The translations under genes and the position numbers were made by a program. DNA of 64,000 nucleotides from Octopus sinensis (taxonomy: Eukaryota). The first letter of the stretch is position 1, and each line of letters starts with the position of its first letter. The notes beneath the pieces were generated by a model, which searched no databases, was not told the DNA's origin, and saw nothing but the letters and a program-made list of their open reading frames with translations. The stretch spans positions 142,166,001-142,230,000 of the forward strand of contig NC_042998.1 in assembly GCF_006345805.1 (NCBI RefSeq), in the 5' to 3' direction. Shown one piece after another: positions 1 to 63,530 of this stretch.

Positions 1-2133
1 AAAATATTAACATCTGACTTGACTGAATATACCTATAGATTTTCAATAAAAAGTGGCATATTCCCTAATGAGCAAAAATGATGTAAATGCGGACCCTATG
101 GATGTAAAGATGATCTTGGAAGATTGTCACAACGACACAAAAACTATAGACTATAGAAATGTTTTTGATAGTCTACTATATAGCTAGATTAAGAAATGGC
201 TGGAAATGTATAAAATAGCACCTACTCTGCGAAACTTCTTGTCTGTAAGTATGAGATCATAGAGAACCACACTGACTTTAAACAGTGATAATGAATCTCT
301 CAATGCTGGAGATGTAGGAATTTCATGTGGAATTTTCCAGGGTGACTCTCTATCACTACTCCTCTTTTGTCTAGCCTTAAAACCTCTCTCGAAATTGCTC
401 GATGATGTACAATATGGCTATAAAATGTTTGATAAAAATGACCAACAACTACAGGGCTTACTAGCAATTGTTGAACAATTCTGTGATGACATCAGGATGC
501 AATTTGGCCTCCATAAATGTGCAAAAACTACCTTTATCAAAGGAAAAATGGCAGAAACATCCAACGTTAATCTTGGCCAGCAGAATGTCATAAAGAAGTT
601 AGAACCAGCGGAGAGCTACAAATACCTAGGGATATTTGAAGGTAATGGAATCAAACATTCAATGATAAGGGAAAGGATCAGAAGAGCAAGTTATAGCAGG
701 GTAAGGGCAATACACAAGACAGAGCTGAATGGAAGAAACAAGATCGAAGCGACTAATATTTTAGCGATACCGGTCGTGACTTAGTTTTAATATCATTAAC
801 TGGTCAATTAGTGAAATTTGTAATCTTGACAGAAAAATTCGAAATTTGTTGACAATGCATAGAATGCACCACCCTAAGGCAGATATAGAACGACTTTACC
901 TGGCTAGAAATGAGGGTGGCCGTGGACTTTTACAACTGGAACTATCAACGAAGATTGCCACAATTGGCCTCAACATCTACCTGAAAAACACTGATGGCTG
1001 GATGTCAAAAGTTGTTTTAAAGCATGAAAACAAGAAAGCATCATATTTAGGCAAAGGAATATCTAAGTGAATTCCAAATATAACAAATCCCAGAATTAGA
1101 CGTATTGGAAACAAACACAGAAAGAAGTTAATCGTATGAAAACCCATGCTAAAACTACTGTCTTAGATATTCTTACTGATAAATATCAAGAAAAACCTCT
1201 CAATAGCAAATACCCAAAGAGAGCTAATAATGCCGTTGTTGACAAAGCCCTTACCCATCAATGGTTAATGTCTTCTGGCTCAAAATCAGAGACAGAAGGG
1301 TATATCATAGTAGCCCAAGATCAATGCCTACATACAAGAAGCTATCAGGCCAGCATCTTAAAGAATGGCAGTAGCCAACATAGTTATGCATACAACAAAA
1401 TGAAACCATTGATCATGTTGTCTCCATGTGCAGTCTTCTAGCGCCTACAGAGTATCTCAACAGGCATCATAGAGTAGCACAGTACATTCACTGGGCAATT
1501 TGCAAAATCTTGGACCTGCCCCATGATAAAAACTGGTGGGAACACAAACCACCTCCAGTACTTGAAAATTATCACATCTCACTCCTCTGGAACTTCACTA
1601 TACAAACTGACAGAAAGAGAGATGCGGATAGGCCATGCATTATATTGAAAGACTTCAGACAAAAATTATGCCTCCTTATTGATATGACTGTCCCAATCGA
1701 CATAAATGTATCTGTCAAAACCTACCACAAACTGATCAAGTATAAAGATTTTGATATAAAAATTGGCAAAATGTGGAACCTCAGATTAAAAAAATACCTG
1801 TTGTCATAGGTGCCCTAGGAATAATAGCAAAAATGGCTGATTCCTATCTGGCTCAGATACCAGGAAAGCCCAAAATGGCAGAAATTCAAAAGATAGTGTT
1901 CGTGGGAACTACCCATATCCTACGTGAAATGCTGTCTATGTAAACTCAAATTTTATAACAAACTTATATTTTTTTTATGTTTTCTTATACATTCTATAGA
2001 ACAATACTATGTGGAAAATCAAATATATGACACTCCAGGCATAATACCAACTTGAACTTCTTACTTTTTGTCTCTTGAGATCTCTGGGTGAGACTTGGAG
2101 CCGACTTGTTCAAATACAAAGCAAAAGTCAAAC

Positions 2134-3383: not shown

Positions 3384-3450
3384 TAAATAAAACGAGACAA
3401 CAAAACCAAGGCAGTGTGAAATTTCTAGGACATTTATAAAGAGAATGGTA

Positions 3451-3498
3451 GTCTTACAGCTGTTTCAGAGATATAAAAGATATCTAATCATCAGAGAC
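3451..3498 (-). ncRNA. Type I hammerhead ribozyme motif, Penelope-like minimal type
   Basis: Minus strand: GTCT-CTGATGA-tt-AGATAT-ctttt-ATATCT-ct-GAAA-CAGCTG-TA-AGAC. Base of stem II is mismatched. Adjacent inverted repeat at 3536-3581/3660-3705 and (TA)n at ~3328-3385. Confidence 0.65.
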
Positions 3499-3738
3499 GA
3501 TATGAGGGAGTGAAATAGAAGGAAATAGTACAGTTCAATATAAGAAGTTATTTTGGAAAGGGAGAGATATAGGAAGTATAAAGGGAAATATGGGAATAAA
3601 AATATTTTATTTTTATTTTTATTCTCATATTTTCGTTTAGTTTTATTATCATATTAGCCTTATACTTCTTATATCTCTCCCTTTCCAAAATAACTTCTTA
3701 TATTGATTTCTATTATTTATTATATGTATATTCATAAA

Positions 3739-11538: not shown

Positions 11539-11706
11539 ATATATGTATGTATGTATATATATATATATATATAATATATATATATATATTGTATAGAGGG
11601 CATTATTACACATAAATGCCTCACACTAGGAGGGACAGAGTCATTACTACCAAAATTATACTAATCATACCCAAATGCAGTTTTTCAAAGCAAGACATTC
11701 AAAAAT

Positions 11707-11775
11707 GAATTATGTTCTGTATCACCGTGATTTCACATACAACTTGCGTCTAATGATCGTCAGCAGAACTGATTC
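11707..11775 (-). ncRNA. Type I hammerhead ribozyme (inverted copy of array unit)
   Basis: Reverse complement of the 12271-12339 motif. Confidence 0.75.
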
Positions 11776-12270
11776 TGAATACATCATAAATAAACTAACC
11801 TTACGTAGCGAAGACGAACAGACAACTGCTCACTCCGGCCAAGCACATGGAATGTTCATAAACCATATATCCGGTAAATGGCGGGCTTTTTACGAACTGC
11901 ATGTCGGGTAGTAATGTTGGTAGTAATGACTCTGTCCCTCCTAGTGTGAGGCATTTATGTGTAATAATGCCCTCTATACAATATAGATATAATTAATTTG
12001 TTCAAAAGAAAAAAATTATTTTCGGATTCTTTTCTTTTATGAGGTTTTCACGCTAGCTACCTGATAATTTCTTGTTAAGATCCCTTATTAAGAGATTATC
12101 CTTAATTGTTAAACTTATTCCGAAATACTTTTCATTACCCGACATGCAGTTCGTAAAAAGCCCGCCATTTACCGGATATATGGTTTATGAACATTCCATG
12201 TGCTTGGCCGGAGTGAGCAGTTGTCTGTTCGTCTTCGCTACGTAAGGTTAGTTTATTTATGATGTATTCA

Positions 12271-12339
12271 GAATCAGTTCTGCTGACGATCATTAGACGC
12301 AAGTTGTATGTGAAATCACGGTGATACAGAACATAATTC
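12271..12339 (+). ncRNA. Type I hammerhead ribozyme, array copy 1
   Basis: GAAT-ca-GTTCTG-CTGACGA-t-CAT-ta-GAC-GCAA-GTT-gt-ATG-t-GAAA-TCAC-g-GTGA-TA-CAGAAC-ata-ATTC. Predicted cleavage after 12326. Confidence 0.75.
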
Positions 12340-12745
12340 ATTTTTGAATGTCTTGCTTTGAAAAACTGCATTTGGGTATGATTAGTATAATTTTGGTAGT
12401 AATGACTCTGTCCCTCCTAGTGTGAGGCATTTATGTGTAATAATGCCCTCTATACAATATAGATATAATTAATTTGTTCAAAAGAAAAAAATTATTTTCG
12501 GATTCTTTTCTTTTATGAGGTTTTCACGCTAGCTACCTGATAATTTCTTGTTAAGATCCCTTATTAAGAGATTATCCTTAATTGTTAAACTTATTCCGAA
12601 ATACTTTTCATTACCCGACATGCAGTTCGTAAAAAGCCCGCCATTTACCGGATATATGGTTTATGAACATTCCATGTGCTTGGCCGGAGTGAGCAGTTGT
12701 CTGTTCGTCTTCGCTACGTAGGTTAGTTTATTTATGATGTATTCA

Positions 12746-12814
12746 GAATCAGTTCTGCTGACGATCATTAGACGCAAGTTGTATGTGAAATCACGGTGAT
12801 ACAGAACATAATTC
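12746..12814 (+). ncRNA. Type I hammerhead ribozyme, array copy 2
   Basis: Same motif as copy 1; predicted cleavage after 12801. Confidence 0.75.
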
Positions 12815-13216
12815 ATTTTTGAATGTCTTGCTTGAAAAACTGCATTTGGGTATGATTAGTATAATTTTGGTAGTAATGACTCTGTCCCTCCTAGTGTGAG
12901 GCTTTATGTGTAATAATGCCCTCTATACAATATAGATATAATTAATTTGTTCAAAAGAAAAAAATTATTTTCGGATTCTTTTCTTTTATGAGGTTTTCAC
13001 GCTAGCTACCTGATAATTCTTGTTAAGATCCCTTATTAGAGATTATCCTTAATTGTTAAACTTATTCCGAAATACTTTTCATTACCCGACATGCAGTTCG
13101 TAAAAAGCCCGCCATTTACCGGATATATGGTTTATGAACATTCCATGTGCTTGCCGGAGTGAGCAGTTGTCTGTTCGTCTTCGCTACGTAAGGTTAGTTT
13201 ATTTATGATGTATTCA

Positions 13217-13285
13217 GAATCAGTTCTGCTGACGATCATTAGACGCAAGTTGTATGTGAAATCACGGTGATACAGAACATAATTC
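13217..13285 (+). ncRNA. Type I hammerhead ribozyme, array copy 3
   Basis: Same motif as copy 1; predicted cleavage after 13272. Confidence 0.75.
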
Positions 13286-13696
13286 ATTTTTGAATGTCTT
13301 GCTTTGAAAAACTGCATTTGGGTATGATTAGTATAATTTTGGTAGTATGACTCTGTCCCTCCTAGTGTGAGGCATTTATGTGTAATAATGCCCTCTATAC
13401 AATATAGATATAATTAATTTGTTCAAAAGAAAAAAAAATTATTTTCGGATTCTTTTCTTTTATGAGGTTTTCACGCTAGCTACCTGATAATTTCTTGTTA
13501 AGATCCCTTATTAAGAGATTATCCTTAATTGTTAAACTTATTCCGAAATACTTTTCATTACCCGACATGCAGTTCGTAAAAAGCCCGCCATTTACCGGAT
13601 ATATGGTTTATGAACATTCCATGTGCTTGGCCGGAGTGAGCAGTTGTCTGTTCGTTCGTCTTCGCTACGTAGGTTAGTTTATTTATGATGTATTCA

Positions 13697-13764
13697 GAAT
13701 CAGTTCTGCTGACGATCATTAGACGCAAGTTGTATGTGAAATCACGGTGATACAGACATAATTC
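13697..13764 (+). ncRNA. Type I hammerhead ribozyme, array copy 4
   Basis: Same motif with a 1-nt deletion in stem I (CAGAC); predicted cleavage after 13752. Confidence 0.7.
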
Positions 13765-14012
13765 ATTTTTGAATGTCTTGCTTTGAAAAACTGCATTTGG
13801 GTATGATTAGTATAATTTTGGTAGTAATGACTCTGTCCCTCCTAGTGTGAGGCATTTATGTGTAATATGCCCTCTATACATATAGATATAATTATTTGTT
13901 CAAAAGAAAAAAATTATTTTCGGATTCTTTTCTTTTATGAGGTTTTCACGCTAGCTACCTGATAATTTCTTGTTAAGATCCCTTATTAAGAGATATCCTT
14001 AATTGTTAAACT

Positions 14013-14013
<1 letters not shown>

Positions 14014-14046
<33 letters not shown>

Positions 14047-14167
14047 AATAGGATTTCTATATAAACAACGCGTGTATCCACTTTTAGGCATTGACTACGC
14101 TTTCTTCTAATTCATTATTAATGTGTATGTGTGTATGCGTACATAAATACACTTATATATATATATA

Positions 14168-14236
<69 letters not shown>

Positions 14237-14400
14237 AATAGGATTTCTATATAAACAACGCGTGTATCCACTTTTAGGCATTGACTACGCTTTCTTCTAA
14301 TTCATTATTAATGTGTATGTGTGTATGCGTACATAAATACACTTATATATATATATATATATATGGTGTGTGTGTGTGTGTGTATGTGTGTAGGTATGTA
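14014..14400. repeat. Direct tandem duplication, period 190 bp, with TA/TG microsatellite junctions
   Basis: gtgaataggatttctatataaacaacgcgtg...cataaatacactta occurs at ~14044 and ~14234. Confidence 0.9.
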
Positions 14401-16158: not shown

Positions 16159-16541
16159 CTAGCAGTATCACCCGGCGTTGCTCGGGTTTGTAAGGGAAAT
16201 AACTATAAAGCATTTTTAGAGAGTTATAGCCAAAAAATAGCAAAAAAATGGAAAAAAAATTATGGTAAATTTTTTTGAGAGTTAAAAAGGTGGAGTTGCG
16301 TCCCCTAGACAGTCTGTGGTTTGTGTTTCTGATTCTCGACCCCATGTCGAATTTATCGATTTTTTTCAGAACTGGGGGAACTTTTCAAAATTTTCGCTGC
16401 GTTAGTTTTGAATTATGACATTGGGCTATGTGTGTATCAAGTTTCATCAGAATCGGTTGAAAGCCGTGGTCATGGTGAGGGTACAACCTAACAGACACAC
16501 AGACACACACACAGACAAACTCCCGTTTATATATAGAGAGA
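16159..16541 (-). mobile_element. Non-autonomous Helitron
   Basis: Minus strand ends CCCGAGCAACGCCGGG hairpin then CTAG; begins TC-rich (tctctctatatataaac). No TSD. Longer relative at 62748-63530. Confidence 0.8.
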
Positions 16542-19029: not shown

Positions 19030-20847
19030 CTATGTTTGAGTTTTGCTTTATATTTGTACAAGTTGGCTCCAAGTCTCACCCAGAGACCTCAAAAGACAAC
19101 AGGTTGGAAGTTCATGTTGTTGTTATGCCTAGTGTGCCATATATTTGGTGAGGGGGGGGGAGTTTTTGGTGTTGTACTAATGAATGTCTAAAAAAAACGA
19201 AAATTATGTTTGTTTTAAACCTTGAGATTACATAGAAAGTATTTTGCGTAGGATATCAGCAGTTCCCATGAGCACTATCTTTTGAATTTCTGCCATTTTG
19301 GGGTTTCCTGGTATCTGAGTTAGGTAGCTATCAGCCCCTTTTGCTATTATTCCCAGGGCACCTATGACAACAGGTATTGTTTTAGTCTTCAGGTTCCACA
19401 TTTTGCTGATTTCTATTTCAAGATCTTTATATTTGCTCAGTTTTTGGTATGTCTTGACAGATACGTTTATATCGATTGGGACAGTCATATCAATGAGGAG
19501 GCATGTTCTTTGTTTGAAGTCTTTCAATATGATGTCTGGCCTATTTGCATCTATCTTTCTGTCAGTTTGAATGGTGAAGTTCCAGAGGAGTGAGATGTGG
19601 TCATTTTCAAGCACTGGGGGTGGTTTGTGTTCCCACCAGTTTTTTTCATGGGGCAAATCCAGGTTTTTGCAGATTACCCAATGAATATATTGTGCAGCTC
19701 TATCGTGTCTGTTGAGATACTCTGTAGGCGCTAGAAGACTGCACTTGGAGACCACATGGTCAATGGTTTCATTTTGTTGCTGGCATACACGACACGTTGG
19801 ACTGCTTCTGATCTTTAATATGTTGGCCTGGTAGTTTCTTGTTGGTAGGCATTGATCTTGAGCTGCTATGATAAACCCCTCTGTTTCAGATTTTAAGCCA
19901 GAGGCCATTAGCCATTGATGGGTCAGGGCTTTGTCAACATCTGCATTATTTGCTCTCTTTCGGTATTTGCCATAGAGAGGTTTTTCTTGCCATTTATCAT
20001 TCAGAATATCTAAGGCCGCAGATTTAGCACGGGTTTTCATGCGCTTAGCTTTTTCTGTGCCTGTTTCTTGTATGTCTATCTCTAATTCCGAAATTTGTTG
20101 TATTCGGAATTCACTTAGATATTCCTTTGCCTGTTTTGTTACTGAGTATGATGCTTTCTTGTTTTCATGTTTTGAGACAAGTTTTAACATCCAGTCCTCA
20201 GAGTTTTTCAGGTAGGTGTCTAGGCCAATTGTAGCAATCTTCATTGTTATTGCCAGTTGTAAAAGTCCACGGCCTCCCTCTTTTCTTGGCAGATAAAGTC
20301 GTTCTGTATCTGCCTTAGGGTGGTGCATTCTATGCATTGTCAACAGTTTTCGAATTTTTCTGTCAAGATTACATATTTCAGTAATTGACCAGTTAACGAT
20401 ATTGAAACTGTAAGTCACAACTGGTATGGCTAATGCATTGATCGCTTCGATCATGTTTCTCGCATTCAGCTCTGTCTTGAGTATTGCTCTTACTCTGCGA
20501 TAACATTCTCTCCTGATCCTTTCCTTCATCTCTGAATGCCTTATTCCTTCTCCTTCAATTACCCCTAGATACTTGTAGTTCTCTGCTGGGTCTAATTCTT
20601 TTATGACATTCTGCTGGTCAAGGTTAACGTTAGATGTTTCTGTCATTTTTCCTTTGATAAAGGTAGCTTTTGCACACTTATCGAGGCCAAATTGCATTCT
20701 GATGTCATCACTGAATTGTTTGACAATCGCTAGTAAGCCCTTGAGTTGTTGGTCATTTTTTGCAAAGAGCTTTAAATCATCCATGTAAATGAGATGATTT
20801 ATATTTTTATCAAACATTTTATACCCGTACTGCGCGTCATTGAGCAG

Positions 20848-20850
<3 letters not shown>
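19030..20850 (-). mobile_element. 5'-truncated young R4/Dong-like LINE inserted in (AAT)n
   Basis: Flanked by (ATT)n at ~18896-19029 and 20851-20950. Uninterrupted reading frame. 3' UTR shared with the copy at 1-2135. Confidence 0.95.
19228..20850 (-). CDS. C-terminal ~540 aa of a non-LTR retrotransposon protein: RT (YMDD), thumb, CCHC knuckle, REL endonuclease
   Basis: HLIYMDDLKLF; YKYLG; CRVCQQQNETIDHVVSKC; RHD; RPDIILKD..LLIDMTVP..KLSKY; IPVVIGALG. The upstream part of the called 633-aa ORF is microsatellite and flank read-through. Confidence 0.93.
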
Positions 20851-20937
<87 letters not shown>

Positions 20938-22233
20938 GTTATTATTATTATGAGAGTTCTTTTTCGTAAGAGTGAGAAAGTATACGAAATATTTCCATAT
21001 AATCCATGTTTTTTCCTTCTTCGGTGCCCTAGTGGCTGTAGATAGCATCATTTTACCCTTCTTATAGGCGCACGCAACAATGTATGTGTGTGTGTGTGTG
21101 CGCACGCATGTGCAATTTAATAAACACACGATTTAAATGTGAGCTACTATACGTTTCATGGTCTGACAGTACATTAATACATTAATTGTATAGCAAACCG
21201 TATACTATCCTGCAATTTTCAAGACTCAAAGTACAAGCTCGTCTGCCAGCTGTACTCTCTTTCGCTGGATGGAGTACTATTTCGCATATTGATATATATA
21301 TACATACATACAGATAAACACACACATACACACATGCATTCATACATGCATACATGCATACATAACCTGCATGAGGGTTCGTATTATCATCTGTATACGT
21401 ATTTCTGATAATCTTCCTGAAACATGTCTAAATTCGCAGGTATTTCAATGAAGACATGAAGATACAGATGCACCCTTGCACTCGCGCACACACATAGACA
21501 CAATCTCACACACACTCTTCATTCATATACACACATACGTACGCATCCACACTAACACACGCACATATATGTCTATACATGCGTACATACATACGCACAT
21601 AAATGCAGAGACAGGCAGGCAGACGGACAGACAGCCAAACTGACACGCAGGCAGACGGATAGACAAACATATAGATGTCGTTACGGTGTTCCAGCATGGC
21701 CACCGTCAAATGACTAAAACAAGTAAAGGAATAAATGGATAGGTAGAGAGGGAAGGAGAGCGAGGGAGAGCGATAGAGAGAGAGAGAGATAAAGGGAGAG
21801 GGGAGGAGAGAGAGACAGACAGATAGACAGAATGATAGATAGATGGATAGATAGACAGACAGACACATAAACAGACAGACAGATAGATGTATGGCGTGTT
21901 TCTTTATTCTGGGGGAGACGTTCTTATTTGTTTAACTTTCTTCTCCACTGACCTACTTCTGACAACAGAAATCACGAACGACGACGACGACATGACCTGC
22001 ACTGACACACGCACGCACGCACACTCACTCACACACACGCACACACTCACTCACACACACACACGCACACACTCACACACACACATACACTCACTCACAC
22101 ACACACATACACTCACTCACACACACACACGCACACACACCCATACATACACACATAAGCTGGGATTCCCACGGGAAACAATGAGACAAAAGTTGAGAGT
22201 TGCAGCAGCATCAACATCATTACTGTCTGTACA

Positions 22234-35828: not shown

Positions 35829-36312
35829 GTCATACGATATAGTGTATATTTAAACACATAGAGAATCCACTTATAGGAATTCTACGCGCTAGAAAGAATA
35901 GCTAAGTTCTATAACCACAAAAAATTCGGATAAAATTCAACAGGAATAAATTTGGAAATGAAAAACATTTACCGTCTAGTTTCCTGGACCAATTGGTTTC
36001 TAATCATCTTTTAGCGAGTCATGGAGAACTCACAAGGTTTGATTTTCTTCAGCAGGTTTGATTCAAACCTCACACGGTTTGATTTTACTGAAGAAAATCA
36101 AGCCTTGTGAGTTCTCCATGACTCGCTAAAAGATTATTAGAAACCAATTAGTCCAGGAAACTAGATGGTAAATGTTTTTCATTTCCAAATTTATTCCTGT
36201 CGAATTTTATCCCGAATTTTTTGTGGTTATAGAACTTAGCTGTTCTTTCTAGCGCGTAGAATCCTTATAAGTGGATTCTCTATGTGTTTAAATATACACT
36301 ATATCGTATGAC
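35829..36312. mobile_element. Foldback/MITE-like element, ~225-bp near-perfect inverted arms
   Basis: 35829-36054 is the reverse complement of ~36087-36312. Small internal hairpin ggtttgattcaaacc. Confidence 0.85.
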
Positions 36313-36454
36313 TAATATATAGTCTTTTTGACTAAAATTTTTTTACGCGTTAGACCACTGGAAATGTAAATTTTAGTTGAATGTTTTTAATTTTAATTAA
36401 ATTCCATTTCCCTTTGATATGATTAAATACTATATATATATATAATAATATAAG

Positions 36455-62364: not shown

Positions 62365-62396
<32 letters not shown>

Positions 62397-62399
62397 TAA

Positions 62400-62722
62400 T
62401 ATAGAGGGCATTATACATACATGCCAGAGAGCATTATACATACATGCCACACGCTAAGAGGGACAATTAGTCATTTCTATCAAAAAATATTACTAATCCC
62501 ACCGAATGCAATTTTTCAAAATAAGACATTTAAAAAATATAGACCTGTATCACAGTGATTTCATACTTACGTATTCATCAGCAGGCCTGAATGTATCATA
62601 AATAAACGACCCTGCCCCGCTTAAGCCGATCAGCTAACTGATCAACATCAACGAAGCACATGGGTGAGTTTACATATATTACATCCTGTAAATGGCATAC
62701 TTTTACGAATTGCATTTCGGGA
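62400..62722 (-). mobile_element. Diverged solitary homolog of the 11586-11911 array segment
   Basis: Colinear landmarks atagagggcatta, gagggaca, aatgca.tttttcaaa, tgtatcac.gtgatttca, tcataaataaac, aagcacatgg, gtaaatggc, tttacgaa.tgcat.tcggg. (TA)n on both sides. Confidence 0.8.
62541..62589 (-). ncRNA. Type I hammerhead ribozyme
   Basis: Minus strand: AGGCCTG-CTGATGA-ATAC-GTAA-GTAT-GAAA-TCAC-t-GTGA-TA-CAGGTCT. Canonical core, perfect stem II with GNRA loop. Confidence 0.85.
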
Positions 62723-62747
62723 GAGGAAATATATATATATATATATA

Positions 62748-63530
62748 CTAGCAGCATAGCCCGGCGTGCCGGGTATGTAAGAGCCCCTAGTAGGCAACGA
62801 CTAATCCCAATCTAGTCCTTTCCCTCTAGGGAACGAAGGCGCATGTGTAGGTTGCAATGTCTTCTCTTCACTCCCAAATAACTATCAAACAGCTATCGAT
62901 AATTCAACCCAACCAATTCCTACCAGGAAGAAATTACATTCGAGACTTACCCTCTGCTAATAGCTGCTGCAGCCGCAAGTTATTCGAATACTTTTTTTGT
63001 TTACACTTCTTTATAACTACCACCCAAACGTTTTACCTTAAATTTTGACGTACCCTAAGGGTCCTCGGACGCTGCTTGCAAACTCTTGGTTTATTATAAA
63101 CCGCTTTTGTCGTGTGCATCAAAAAAACCTTTTCCATTCGTTTGTTCAATTTGGTCACTTTTGACTTTTTCGTTGTTGTCACTCACATTGCTGCCTGCCT
63201 GCTTTTTTGCCGTTTTGTACATTTTTATACATTTTGGGATACTTACCCCACGTGTTCCGAGAGTTAAAAAGGTCGAGTGCGTCCCCTAGATAGTCTGTAG
63301 AAAATGTGTTGCATATAAAAAGCTTAGATTCTCGACCCATGTCGAATTTATCGATTTTTTTTCAGAACTGGGAGAACTTTTCAAAAATTTTCGCTGCGTT
63401 AGTTTTGAATTATGACATTGGGCTATGTGTGTGTCAAGTTTCGTCAGAATCGGTGGAAAGCCGTGGTCAGGGTGAGGGTACAACCTGACAGAACACACAT
63501 ACACACAGACAGACAAACTGCCGTTTATAT
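62748..63530 (-). mobile_element. Non-autonomous Helitron, longer relative of 16159-16541
   Basis: CTAG and cccggcgtgccggg hairpin at left. 63260-63530 closely matches 16278-16535. Confidence 0.8.

What the first reader, a model, noticed from the sequence alone, without database searches (positions are those of the whole stretch)
62400..62722. Diverged solo homolog shows compensatory changes preserving the hammerhead fold
Seen: this copy is visibly diverged from the array unit, yet stem I changes from GTTCTG/CAGAAC to GGCCTG/CAGGTC, stem II is rebuilt as ATAC-GTAA-GTAT (again a GNRA loop), stem III keeps TCAC-n-GTGA, and the core stays CTGAYGA/GAAA/TA. Its similarity also stops at the same point (..gcat.tcggg) as the inverted arm of the array. 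Inference: covariation indicates selection on ribozyme structure across an old, diversified family, and the ~320-bp segment is a defined terminal-repeat or transcript unit.
Basis: partly seen in the sequence, partly recalled or inferred. Interest (0 to 1): 0.8.

Follow-up and report, generated by a model that had tools for sequence, protein, structure and literature searches.

The report
Young retrozyme copy with conserved hammerhead
The 330-base piece is a recent, front-truncated copy of a non-coding repeat present in thousands of copies, whose hammerhead-ribozyme fold is kept by paired base changes across many subfamilies and which is likely spread by Penelope-like retrotransposon enzymes, so it is a well-documented new example of a known RNA parasite (a retrozyme), not an ancient terminal repeat.

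Summary
The type I hammerhead at 62541-62589 (-) is there. The copy is not an old diverged relic: it is a 5'-truncated (unit positions 147-475), one-armed insertion in (TA)n of a young subfamily (B) with its own 475-bp tandem unit (449 exact copies of its ribozyme). The window array is a sister subfamily (A). Covariation is real once 35 subfamily representatives are aligned (94.9% of cells paired vs 81.5% shuffled; 13 same-branch double changes vs about 2-3 by chance). It includes a lone loop-II/position-1.7 pair that runs A-U, G-U, G-C and U-A. The ~320-bp boundary is not defined: 5' ends scatter over the unit. The 3' ends are fixed: 79 of 83 two-armed insertions carry one end at unit position ~475 and one ~125-140 nt further on (a long Penelope-type tail). 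None of 112 5' breakpoints lies at the cleavage site. Best reading: a non-LTR retrozyme mobilised by Penelope-like RT/endonuclease, likely from circular RNA. No autonomous partner, cleavage or expression was shown. This scan noted Penelope-type arrays on other genomes before (unchecked notes). New member of a known kind.

The parts
62400..62729 (-). One-armed, 5'-truncated copy of subfamily B unit (unit positions 147-475 of 475)
   Evidence: (L001)
62541..62588 (-). Type I hammerhead ribozyme motif; predicted cleavage between 62548 and 62547
   Evidence: sequence
62582..62588 (-). Stem I 5' strand (pairs with 62541-62547)
62575..62581 (-). Catalytic core C3-A9
   Evidence: core definition in PMC3088659
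62563..62574 (-). 4-bp stem II with GUAA loop; the last loop base (A, 62567) covaries with position 1.7 (U, 62541)
62548..62562 (-). Core G12-A15, palindromic stem III, U16 and A17
62400..62449 (-). 3' end region with a 23-bp duplication (a subfamily trait) ending at fixed outer end E1
62372..62399 (.). (TA)n tract joined to the element's 3' end (target microsatellite)
62730..62748 (.). (TA)n tract joined to the truncated 5' end
11592..11910 (-). Sister subfamily A insertion: inverted arm, unit positions 158-473, outer end E1 in (TA)n
11912..14015 (+). Sister subfamily A insertion: direct arm, partial unit + four 473-479-bp units + 140-bp tail ending at outer end E2 in (TA)n

Best explanation
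The segment is a young, 5'-truncated insertion of a non-coding ~475-bp hammerhead-bearing repeat (a non-LTR retrozyme) that is likely copied into (TA)n microsatellites by the reverse transcriptase/GIY-YIG endonuclease of a Penelope-like element (PLE). Shown: family size, closed non-coding unit, two-armed head-to-head arrays with scattered inner 5' ends and two fixed outer ends, (TA)n targets, covarying ribozyme stems and a covarying loop-II/1.7 pair. Inferred: an array is transcribed and the hammerheads (as monomer, or as a dimer through the palindromic stem III) cut it to unit length. The monomer likely circularises. A PLE protein, possibly a dimer, nicks both strands of a TA tract and primes cDNA at two internal sites ~125-140 nt apart, one per DNA end, each running round the template for up to ~15 units. 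The two cDNA ends join to give the inverted junction. The solo is a case where only the E1-primed arm survived, 330 nt long, with one ribozyme, so it could not by itself give a unit-length circle.
For: Copy number: 3132 and 1072 pattern matches vs 0 controls; 449 exact. Non-coding: longest stop-free frame 56-64 aa, GC 33-35%. Covariation: 94.9% paired vs 81.5% shuffled, 0/500, slid controls 22-45%; RNAalifold recovers the three-way junction unaided; 13 same-branch double changes vs 1.9 (mismatched partners, max 6 in 133,496) and 2.6 (branch null, 0 of 20,000). Lone pair: 35 of 35 complementary (A-U 33, G-C 1, U-A 1); 99 of 100 listed A-type copies (U-A 47, A-U 52) and 97 of 100 listed short-stem copies (G-C 58, A-U 22, G-U 17), tallied by hand. 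Ends: 61 of 65 two-armed insertions have one E1 and one E2 end, none E2+E2, plus 18 of 18 further subfamily-A insertions. Either arm can be the longer by more than a unit (20 and 20 of 79), so neither is a copy of the other. 0 of 112 5' breakpoints at the cleavage site (3.6 expected), and 72 of 79 E1 arms and 61 of 79 E2 arms run past it. Units within an insertion, both arms included, differ by 0.11-0.14% (A) and 0.5-0.7% (B) vs 1.2% and 3.6% between insertions. The genome holds RT + GIY-YIG PLEs with long open frames. The same marks are described for PLEs in PMC8557442 and PMC11167929.
Against: No autonomous element sharing sequence with the unit was found: 50 GIY-YIG loci gave only two weak AT-rich hits, and 20 tail-only loci were all short copies, one nested at the end of an unrelated PLE. 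The tail is 125-140 nt, not the 30-40 bp described for PLEs. The solo motif alone folds unremarkably (z -1.69), and the active monomer fold is 3.9 kcal/mol above the minimum. Pair 10.1-11.1 is a mismatch in 13 of 35 representatives. Rfam gives no hammerhead hit. In vitro the Anolis PLE does not need ribozyme cleavage and uses unprocessed RNA (PMC11167929), and 8 of 9 Xenopus retrozyme dimers did not cleave (bioRxiv 10.64898/2026.07.22.740005). The circle is inferred: linear uncleaved multimers fit the ends equally well. Stem III invariance says nothing, because it was part of the search patterns.
Confidence: 0.8

Rival explanations
1. Same element and same PLE machinery, but the template is a long linear uncleaved multimer. 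The ribozyme is selected for another step (releasing the RNA from host transcripts, end-processing, or late protein-assisted cleavage) and no circle is needed.
For: PMC11167929: ribozyme mutants insert normally in vitro and no reads end at the cleavage site. Arrays of up to ~17 units exist as possible sources. No RNA evidence for circles here.
Against: Subfamily-wide homogeneity of all units in both arms, with 15 variants private to one insertion and fixed in all its units, is most simply explained by a one-unit bottleneck. Selection on a tertiary contact suggests efficient cleavage, which would destroy long linear templates.
Confidence: 0.3
2. Monomers insert and the arrays then grow locally by unequal crossover, like satellites (model discussed in bioRxiv 10.64898/2026.07.22.740005).
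For: A few variants recur at fixed spacing within arrays (L300 units 1 and 9 of 13; L105 units 3 and 7 of 9), and some whole insertions are duplicated (L064, L286).
Against: Both inverted arms are multimeric and as alike across the inversion as within an arm; each insertion keeps exactly one E1 and one E2 end in (TA)n.
Confidence: 0.08
3. These are 3' pseudo-LTR fragments of an autonomous PLE family whose full-length copies were missed.
For: Autonomous-type PLE loci here also carry type I hammerheads with palindromic stem III near a TA-flanked end; only 150 of 5029 GIY-YIG candidates were scored.
Against: In the 101 insertions, the 20 and the 20 loci no unit opened into coding sequence; units follow each other head to tail for up to ~15 copies.
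Confidence: 0.07
4. One reading: an old, diverged solo relic marking a defined ~320-bp terminal-repeat or transcript unit.
For: Solo and array arm stop within about 6 nt of each other; 7 of 112 other breakpoints lie at unit positions 146-160 vs 3.9 expected (p=0.10), so a weak stop site is not excluded.
Against: 98-100% identical copies genome-wide; 475-bp period; breakpoints spread over positions 1-424.
Confidence: 0.03

Closest known systems
Metazoan non-LTR retrozymes (Cervera and de la Pena 2020, PMC7229834; Li, Clavereau and Pollet, bioRxiv 10.64898/2026.07.22.740005)
   Same: Non-coding, low-GC tandem repeats with one type I hammerhead per unit, monomers to multimers, thousands of copies, co-existing with PLEs; a U-U mismatch at the base of helix II is described for one axolotl family.
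   Different: Unit 473-476 bp, a little above the 150-450 bp of the 2020 paper (inside the preprint's 51-972 bp). The parts I read describe neither head-to-head two-armed insertions nor fixed paired outer ends for retrozymes. Expression and circles not shown here.
Pseudo-LTR, inverted 5' copy and tail of EN+ Penelope-like elements (PMC8557442; Poseidon of Anolis, PMC11167929)
   Same: 5' truncation, partial tandems, inverted 5'-truncated copy, tail at one end only, AT-rich or (TA)n targets, two internal reverse-transcription start sites, hammerhead near the end.
   Different: No ORF; tail 125-140 nt instead of 30-40 bp; the one-of-each pairing of ends is near-strict (79 of 83), whereas the in vitro Anolis data showed no strand difference in start site; no sequence-matched autonomous partner found.
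Full-length type I hammerheads with the U1.7 / loop-II adenine contact (Schistosoma, sTRSV; O'Rourke et al. as reported in PMC11875169)
   Same: U at 1.7 in 33 of 35 representatives regardless of position 2.7; A as last loop-II base in 33 of 35; the solo has the minimal arrangement of a 4-bp stem II, GNRA loop and U1.7.
   Different: Here the pair is replaced by G-U, G-C and U-A in other subfamilies, a series typical of a Watson-Crick pair rather than the Hoogsteen contact described; geometry untested.
Repeat-type dimeric hammerheads with palindromic stem III (PMC3088659, Fig. S8 legend)
   Same: Palindromic stem III; two copies co-fold into a double hammerhead at -31.7 vs 2 x -12.4 kcal/mol.
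   Different: Stem III here can also close as a 4-bp monomer stem; which form is active is untested.

Membership tests
Type I hammerhead ribozyme | Core C3 U4 G5 A6 N7 G8 A9, G12 A13 A14 A15, U16 H17 (PMC3088659) | tested here: met
Type I hammerhead ribozyme | Three stems, core-adjacent pairs formed, stem I open-ended | tested here: met
   solo: G-C, A-U and A15-U16; array subfamily has U-U at 10.1-11.1, a tolerated variant per PMC3088659
Type I hammerhead ribozyme | Covariation in stems across homologues | tested here: met
   stems I and II; stem III invariant and uninformative
Type I hammerhead ribozyme | Match to an Rfam hammerhead model | tested here: not met
   no hit at gathering score or E up to 10
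Type I hammerhead ribozyme | Self-cleavage after H17 | not testable with these tools
   needs a cleavage assay
Non-LTR retrozyme | [quoted passage not shown] | tested here: met
   family level; the solo itself is a truncated monomer
Non-LTR retrozyme | No coding capacity, GC below 45% | tested here: met
Non-LTR retrozyme | Expressed as monomeric circular RNA | not testable with these tools
   no holder on record as RNA, contigs only
Mobilised by a Penelope-like element | 5' truncation, inverted 5'-truncated copy, tail at one end, (TA)n target | tested here: met
Mobilised by a Penelope-like element | Tail length 30-40 bp | tested here: not met
   125-140 nt
Mobilised by a Penelope-like element | Autonomous partner sharing terminal sequence | tested here: inconclusive
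   PLEs present but none of 50 sampled loci matches; 5029 candidates, 150 scored
Autonomous EN+ Penelope-like element | RT plus GIY-YIG ORF | tested here: not met

The most novel reading that the evidence does not exclude
This superfamily is a genomic record of twin-primed rolling-circle retrotransposition: one PLE dimer primes both target ends on a single monomeric ribozyme-made RNA circle at two different fixed sites ~130 nt apart, always one of each, and the ribozyme is a naturally evolving full-activity hammerhead whose one-base tertiary contact switches A-U, G-U, G-C and U-A like a Watson-Crick pair. That would explain why hammerheads are kept in PLE-dependent elements and show that retrozyme arrays arrive ready-made.
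Probability: 0.4. Interest if true: 0.7.

Novelty: new member of a known kind. Interest (0 to 1): 0.47.

Why it matters
The role of hammerheads in Penelope-like elements is called unclear in PMC8557442 and was dispensable in the only in vitro system (PMC11167929). The retrozyme-PLE link rests mainly on co-occurrence and phylogeny. This family gives phylogeny-controlled evidence of selection on the ribozyme, down to a tertiary pair, in a non-coding parasite whose only known currency is mobilisation. It also gives direct PLE insertion marks on multimeric arrays with two mapped start sites. It supplies short natural templates for testing circular vs linear templates and the two-site priming model. 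The solo copy itself is ordinary.

Tried and rejected
Rfam scans found no hammerhead. Single-sequence folds were not significant (z -1.69 to +0.45). Expression: no RNA holder listed. Four runs guessed to be RNA hold low-depth contigs of the unit, one wrapping round it, but these cannot tell RNA from DNA or circle from tandem, so they are not used as evidence. Autonomous partner: 30 + 20 GIY-YIG loci and 20 tail-only loci gave none; L267 looked promising but is a fragment nested in the TA tract ending an unrelated PLE, and PLE pieces beside L227, L162 and L166 look like the same nesting. My first ribozyme scanner returned nothing and was rewritten. The periodicity test found no units and was redone. 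A boundary hot spot at unit position ~150 was tested and not significant. A snap-back model (second arm copied from the first) was rejected because either arm can be the longer. Five hits (L217, L231, L232, L240, L241) had no unit homology and were left out of the 35-row alignment. No target-site duplication could be read in (TA)n. R-scape was not available.

Full report
Observation. The minus strand of 62541-62589 carries a complete type I hammerhead motif: the core as defined in PMC3088659 (passages), a 7-bp stem I, a 4-bp stem II with a GUAA loop, a palindromic stem III and A17. Rfam does not recognise it and the isolated sequence folds no better than shuffles, so the case rests on comparison.

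What the copy is. In the 2.7-Gb own genome the segment had 1429 first-look candidates, 40 scored, giving 49 matches; the 40 full-length ones are 98-100% identical. The exact 46-base ribozyme occurs 449 times against 0 for the control. Its relatives form their own tandem arrays with a 475-bp period. The solo is positions 147-475 of that unit, between two (TA)n tracts. The window array belongs to a sister subfamily A (310 matches from 30 scored of 1099 candidates). Broader patterns give 3132 and 1072 matches with 0 controls. Of the 50 loci taken from the second pattern, 45 are homologous to the A/B unit outside the ribozyme, at 62-93% identity; five are not and were dropped. The unit has no frame over 64 codons and 33-35% GC. 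Pieces also occur in coded runs of other organisms.

Covariation. Between the two window copies only two stem I and two stem II pairs change on both sides. I chose 35 representatives by hand, one or a few per subfamily, and aligned them by sequence only. Named pairs are formed in 94.9% of cells against 81.5% in shuffles (0 of 500) and 22-45% when partners are slid; all six stem I pairs and three of four stem II pairs change on both sides. The count of further pair types was not above shuffles (474 of 500). RNAalifold recovers the three-way junction. On a tree built from the flanks, nine stem pairs show 13 same-branch double changes, against a mean of 1.9 (maximum 6) for mismatched partners and 2.6 for a branch-length null (0 of 20,000). 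Stems I and II were not in the pattern (three bases of stem I were in that); stem III was, so its invariance is no evidence. Pair 10.1-11.1 is a mismatch in 13 of 35; U-U there is a known variant (PMC3088659; PMC7229834).

A tertiary pair. Position 1.7 is U in 33 of 35 while its helical partner varies, and the last base of loop II is A in 33 of 35. The two exceptions coincide and stay complementary (U-A in the window array, G-C in another subfamily). In genome-wide listings (first 100 rows of 1064 and of 126 matches, tallied by hand) 99 of 100 and 97 of 100 copies keep a standard pair, with G-U as an intermediate class. These are two or three evolutionary events, not 200. PMC11875169 (passages) reports that a contact between U1.7 and the last A of a stem II tetraloop is seen in two crystal structures and was proposed to be enough for high activity. 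The solo has that arrangement, but its A2.7 can also pair with U1.7, which that paper found lowers the rate. The A-U, G-U, G-C, U-A series suggests Watson-Crick geometry (inference). Subfamily B appears to have arisen from a longer form by deleting the distal part of stem II and about six bases on each side of stem I; its GUAA loop aligns with the old internal loop, not with the array's GCAA loop.

The boundary. One search parsed 101 insertions from 95 stretches (70 loci picked by place from pattern lists, 23 from the best-hit list, 2 window stretches): 65 two-armed, 33 one-armed, 2 cut by a locus edge, 1 complex. Inner 5' ends are spread over unit positions 1-424. Leaving out the best-hit loci and the two window ends in question, 9 of 112 lie at 140-165 (6.8 expected, p=0.24) and 0 of 112 at the cleavage site (3.6 expected). 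The outer 3' ends are fixed: E1 at position ~475, ending in a TA-like stretch with mostly 8-12 bases of match to the target, and E2 about 125 (B) or 140 (A) bases into the next unit, mostly with 3 bases of match. Both lie just 3' of predicted hairpins. Of the 65 two-armed insertions 61 have one E1 and one E2, 3 have E2 plus a rearranged end, 1 has two E1 and none has two E2 (one duplicated insertion, L064, is counted twice). Eighteen further complete subfamily-A insertions, chosen from the best-hit list and classed by eye, are all E1+E2. Either arm may be the longer (38 vs 41 of 79), and 9 of 61 junctions are symmetric against about 1 expected.

Mechanism. PMC8557442 (passages) describes 5' truncation, partial tandems, an inverted 5' copy, a 30-40-bp tail often at one end only, and (TA)n targeting for PLEs. 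PMC11167929 (main text, parts 1-2 of 4) shows that a PLE protein nicks and extends both strands of AT-rich DNA, is predicted to be a dimer, and starts reverse transcription at two internal sites that bound the tail. The family fits this with a longer tail (inference). Most arms run through the cleavage site and insertions reach about 17 units, uniform across both arms, so the template cannot be a cleaved linear monomer. It is either a circle, as shown for coral, mussel and axolotl retrozymes in PMC7229834 (passages and sections 14 and 17), or an uncleaved multimer. I favour the circle at about 60:40 because of the one-unit homogeneity and the selection on the ribozyme. The preprint 10.64898/2026.07.22.740005 (parts 1-3 of 5) links retrozymes to PLE pseudo-LTRs by phylogeny and suggests local tandem growth; the arrays here look ready-made, although a few spaced variants hint at later duplication.

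Partner. [quoted passage not shown] None of 50 sampled loci shares clear sequence with the unit, and the commonest family has a degenerate ribozyme core. The partner stays open.

Novelty. The kind is known. Paper searches listed no description of this family, of paired E1/E2 ends in a retrozyme, or of natural swaps at the 1.7 contact. The library lacks most subscription papers and Repbase, and I did not see the supplements of the papers cited, which may hold such cases. Earlier notes of this scan report Penelope-type arrays and ribozyme-bearing ends on other genomes (unchecked) and nothing on this genome. Verdict: real ribozyme-structure selection, ordinary young truncated copy, no defined 320-bp unit; new member of a known kind with two testable mechanistic details.

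Noticed in passing
window 35830-36430: A second, non-homologous hammerhead repeat family (unit ~480 bp, long stem II) with the same build: two inverted arms in TA tracts, one with a ~105-bp tail; 53 matches from 40 scored of 1491 candidates.
   Followed up: partly
window 3440-3505 (-): A third type I hammerhead-like motif with a palindromic stem III, about 70 bases upstream of a TA tract; related sequence in L109 and L189.
   Followed up: partly
window 19228-21132 (-) and 263-784 (+): 634-codon open frame with RVT_1 and zf-RVT matches (LINE-like), and a weak RVT_1 fragment.
   Followed up: partly
window 62749-62790 (-): Directly beside the solo, a GC hairpin followed by CTAG and a TA tract, like a Helitron 3' end (label recalled, not tested); 63259-63530 has an 87% copy at 16277-16532 and in five loci.
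   Followed up: partly
L146-L149, L267: Abundant Neptune-like PLE family with a 781-codon RT-endonuclease frame overlapped by an upstream 479-codon frame, ending in (TA)n, whose hammerhead-like end has an altered core.
   Followed up: partly
window 14015-14358: 190-bp tandem duplication starting at the array's tail end.
   Followed up: no
L300, L105, L294, L185: Single variants recurring at fixed unit spacing within long arrays; could reflect multimeric templates, later duplication or assembly error.
   Followed up: partly
L161, L163, L195, L006, L009, L064: Inverted junctions with the same breakpoint on both arms (9 of 61 vs about 1 expected), suggesting joining at local palindromes.
   Followed up: partly
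run X19, record 25: A 516-base contig from coded organism E holds a tandem unit of this superfamily whose printed loose ends read as a 6-bp stem I differing from both window subfamilies and a C at 11.1.
   Followed up: partly
L217, L231, L232, L240, L241: Hammerheads sharing the same stem III but with no detectable homology to the unit; further unrelated or very distant families.
   Followed up: no
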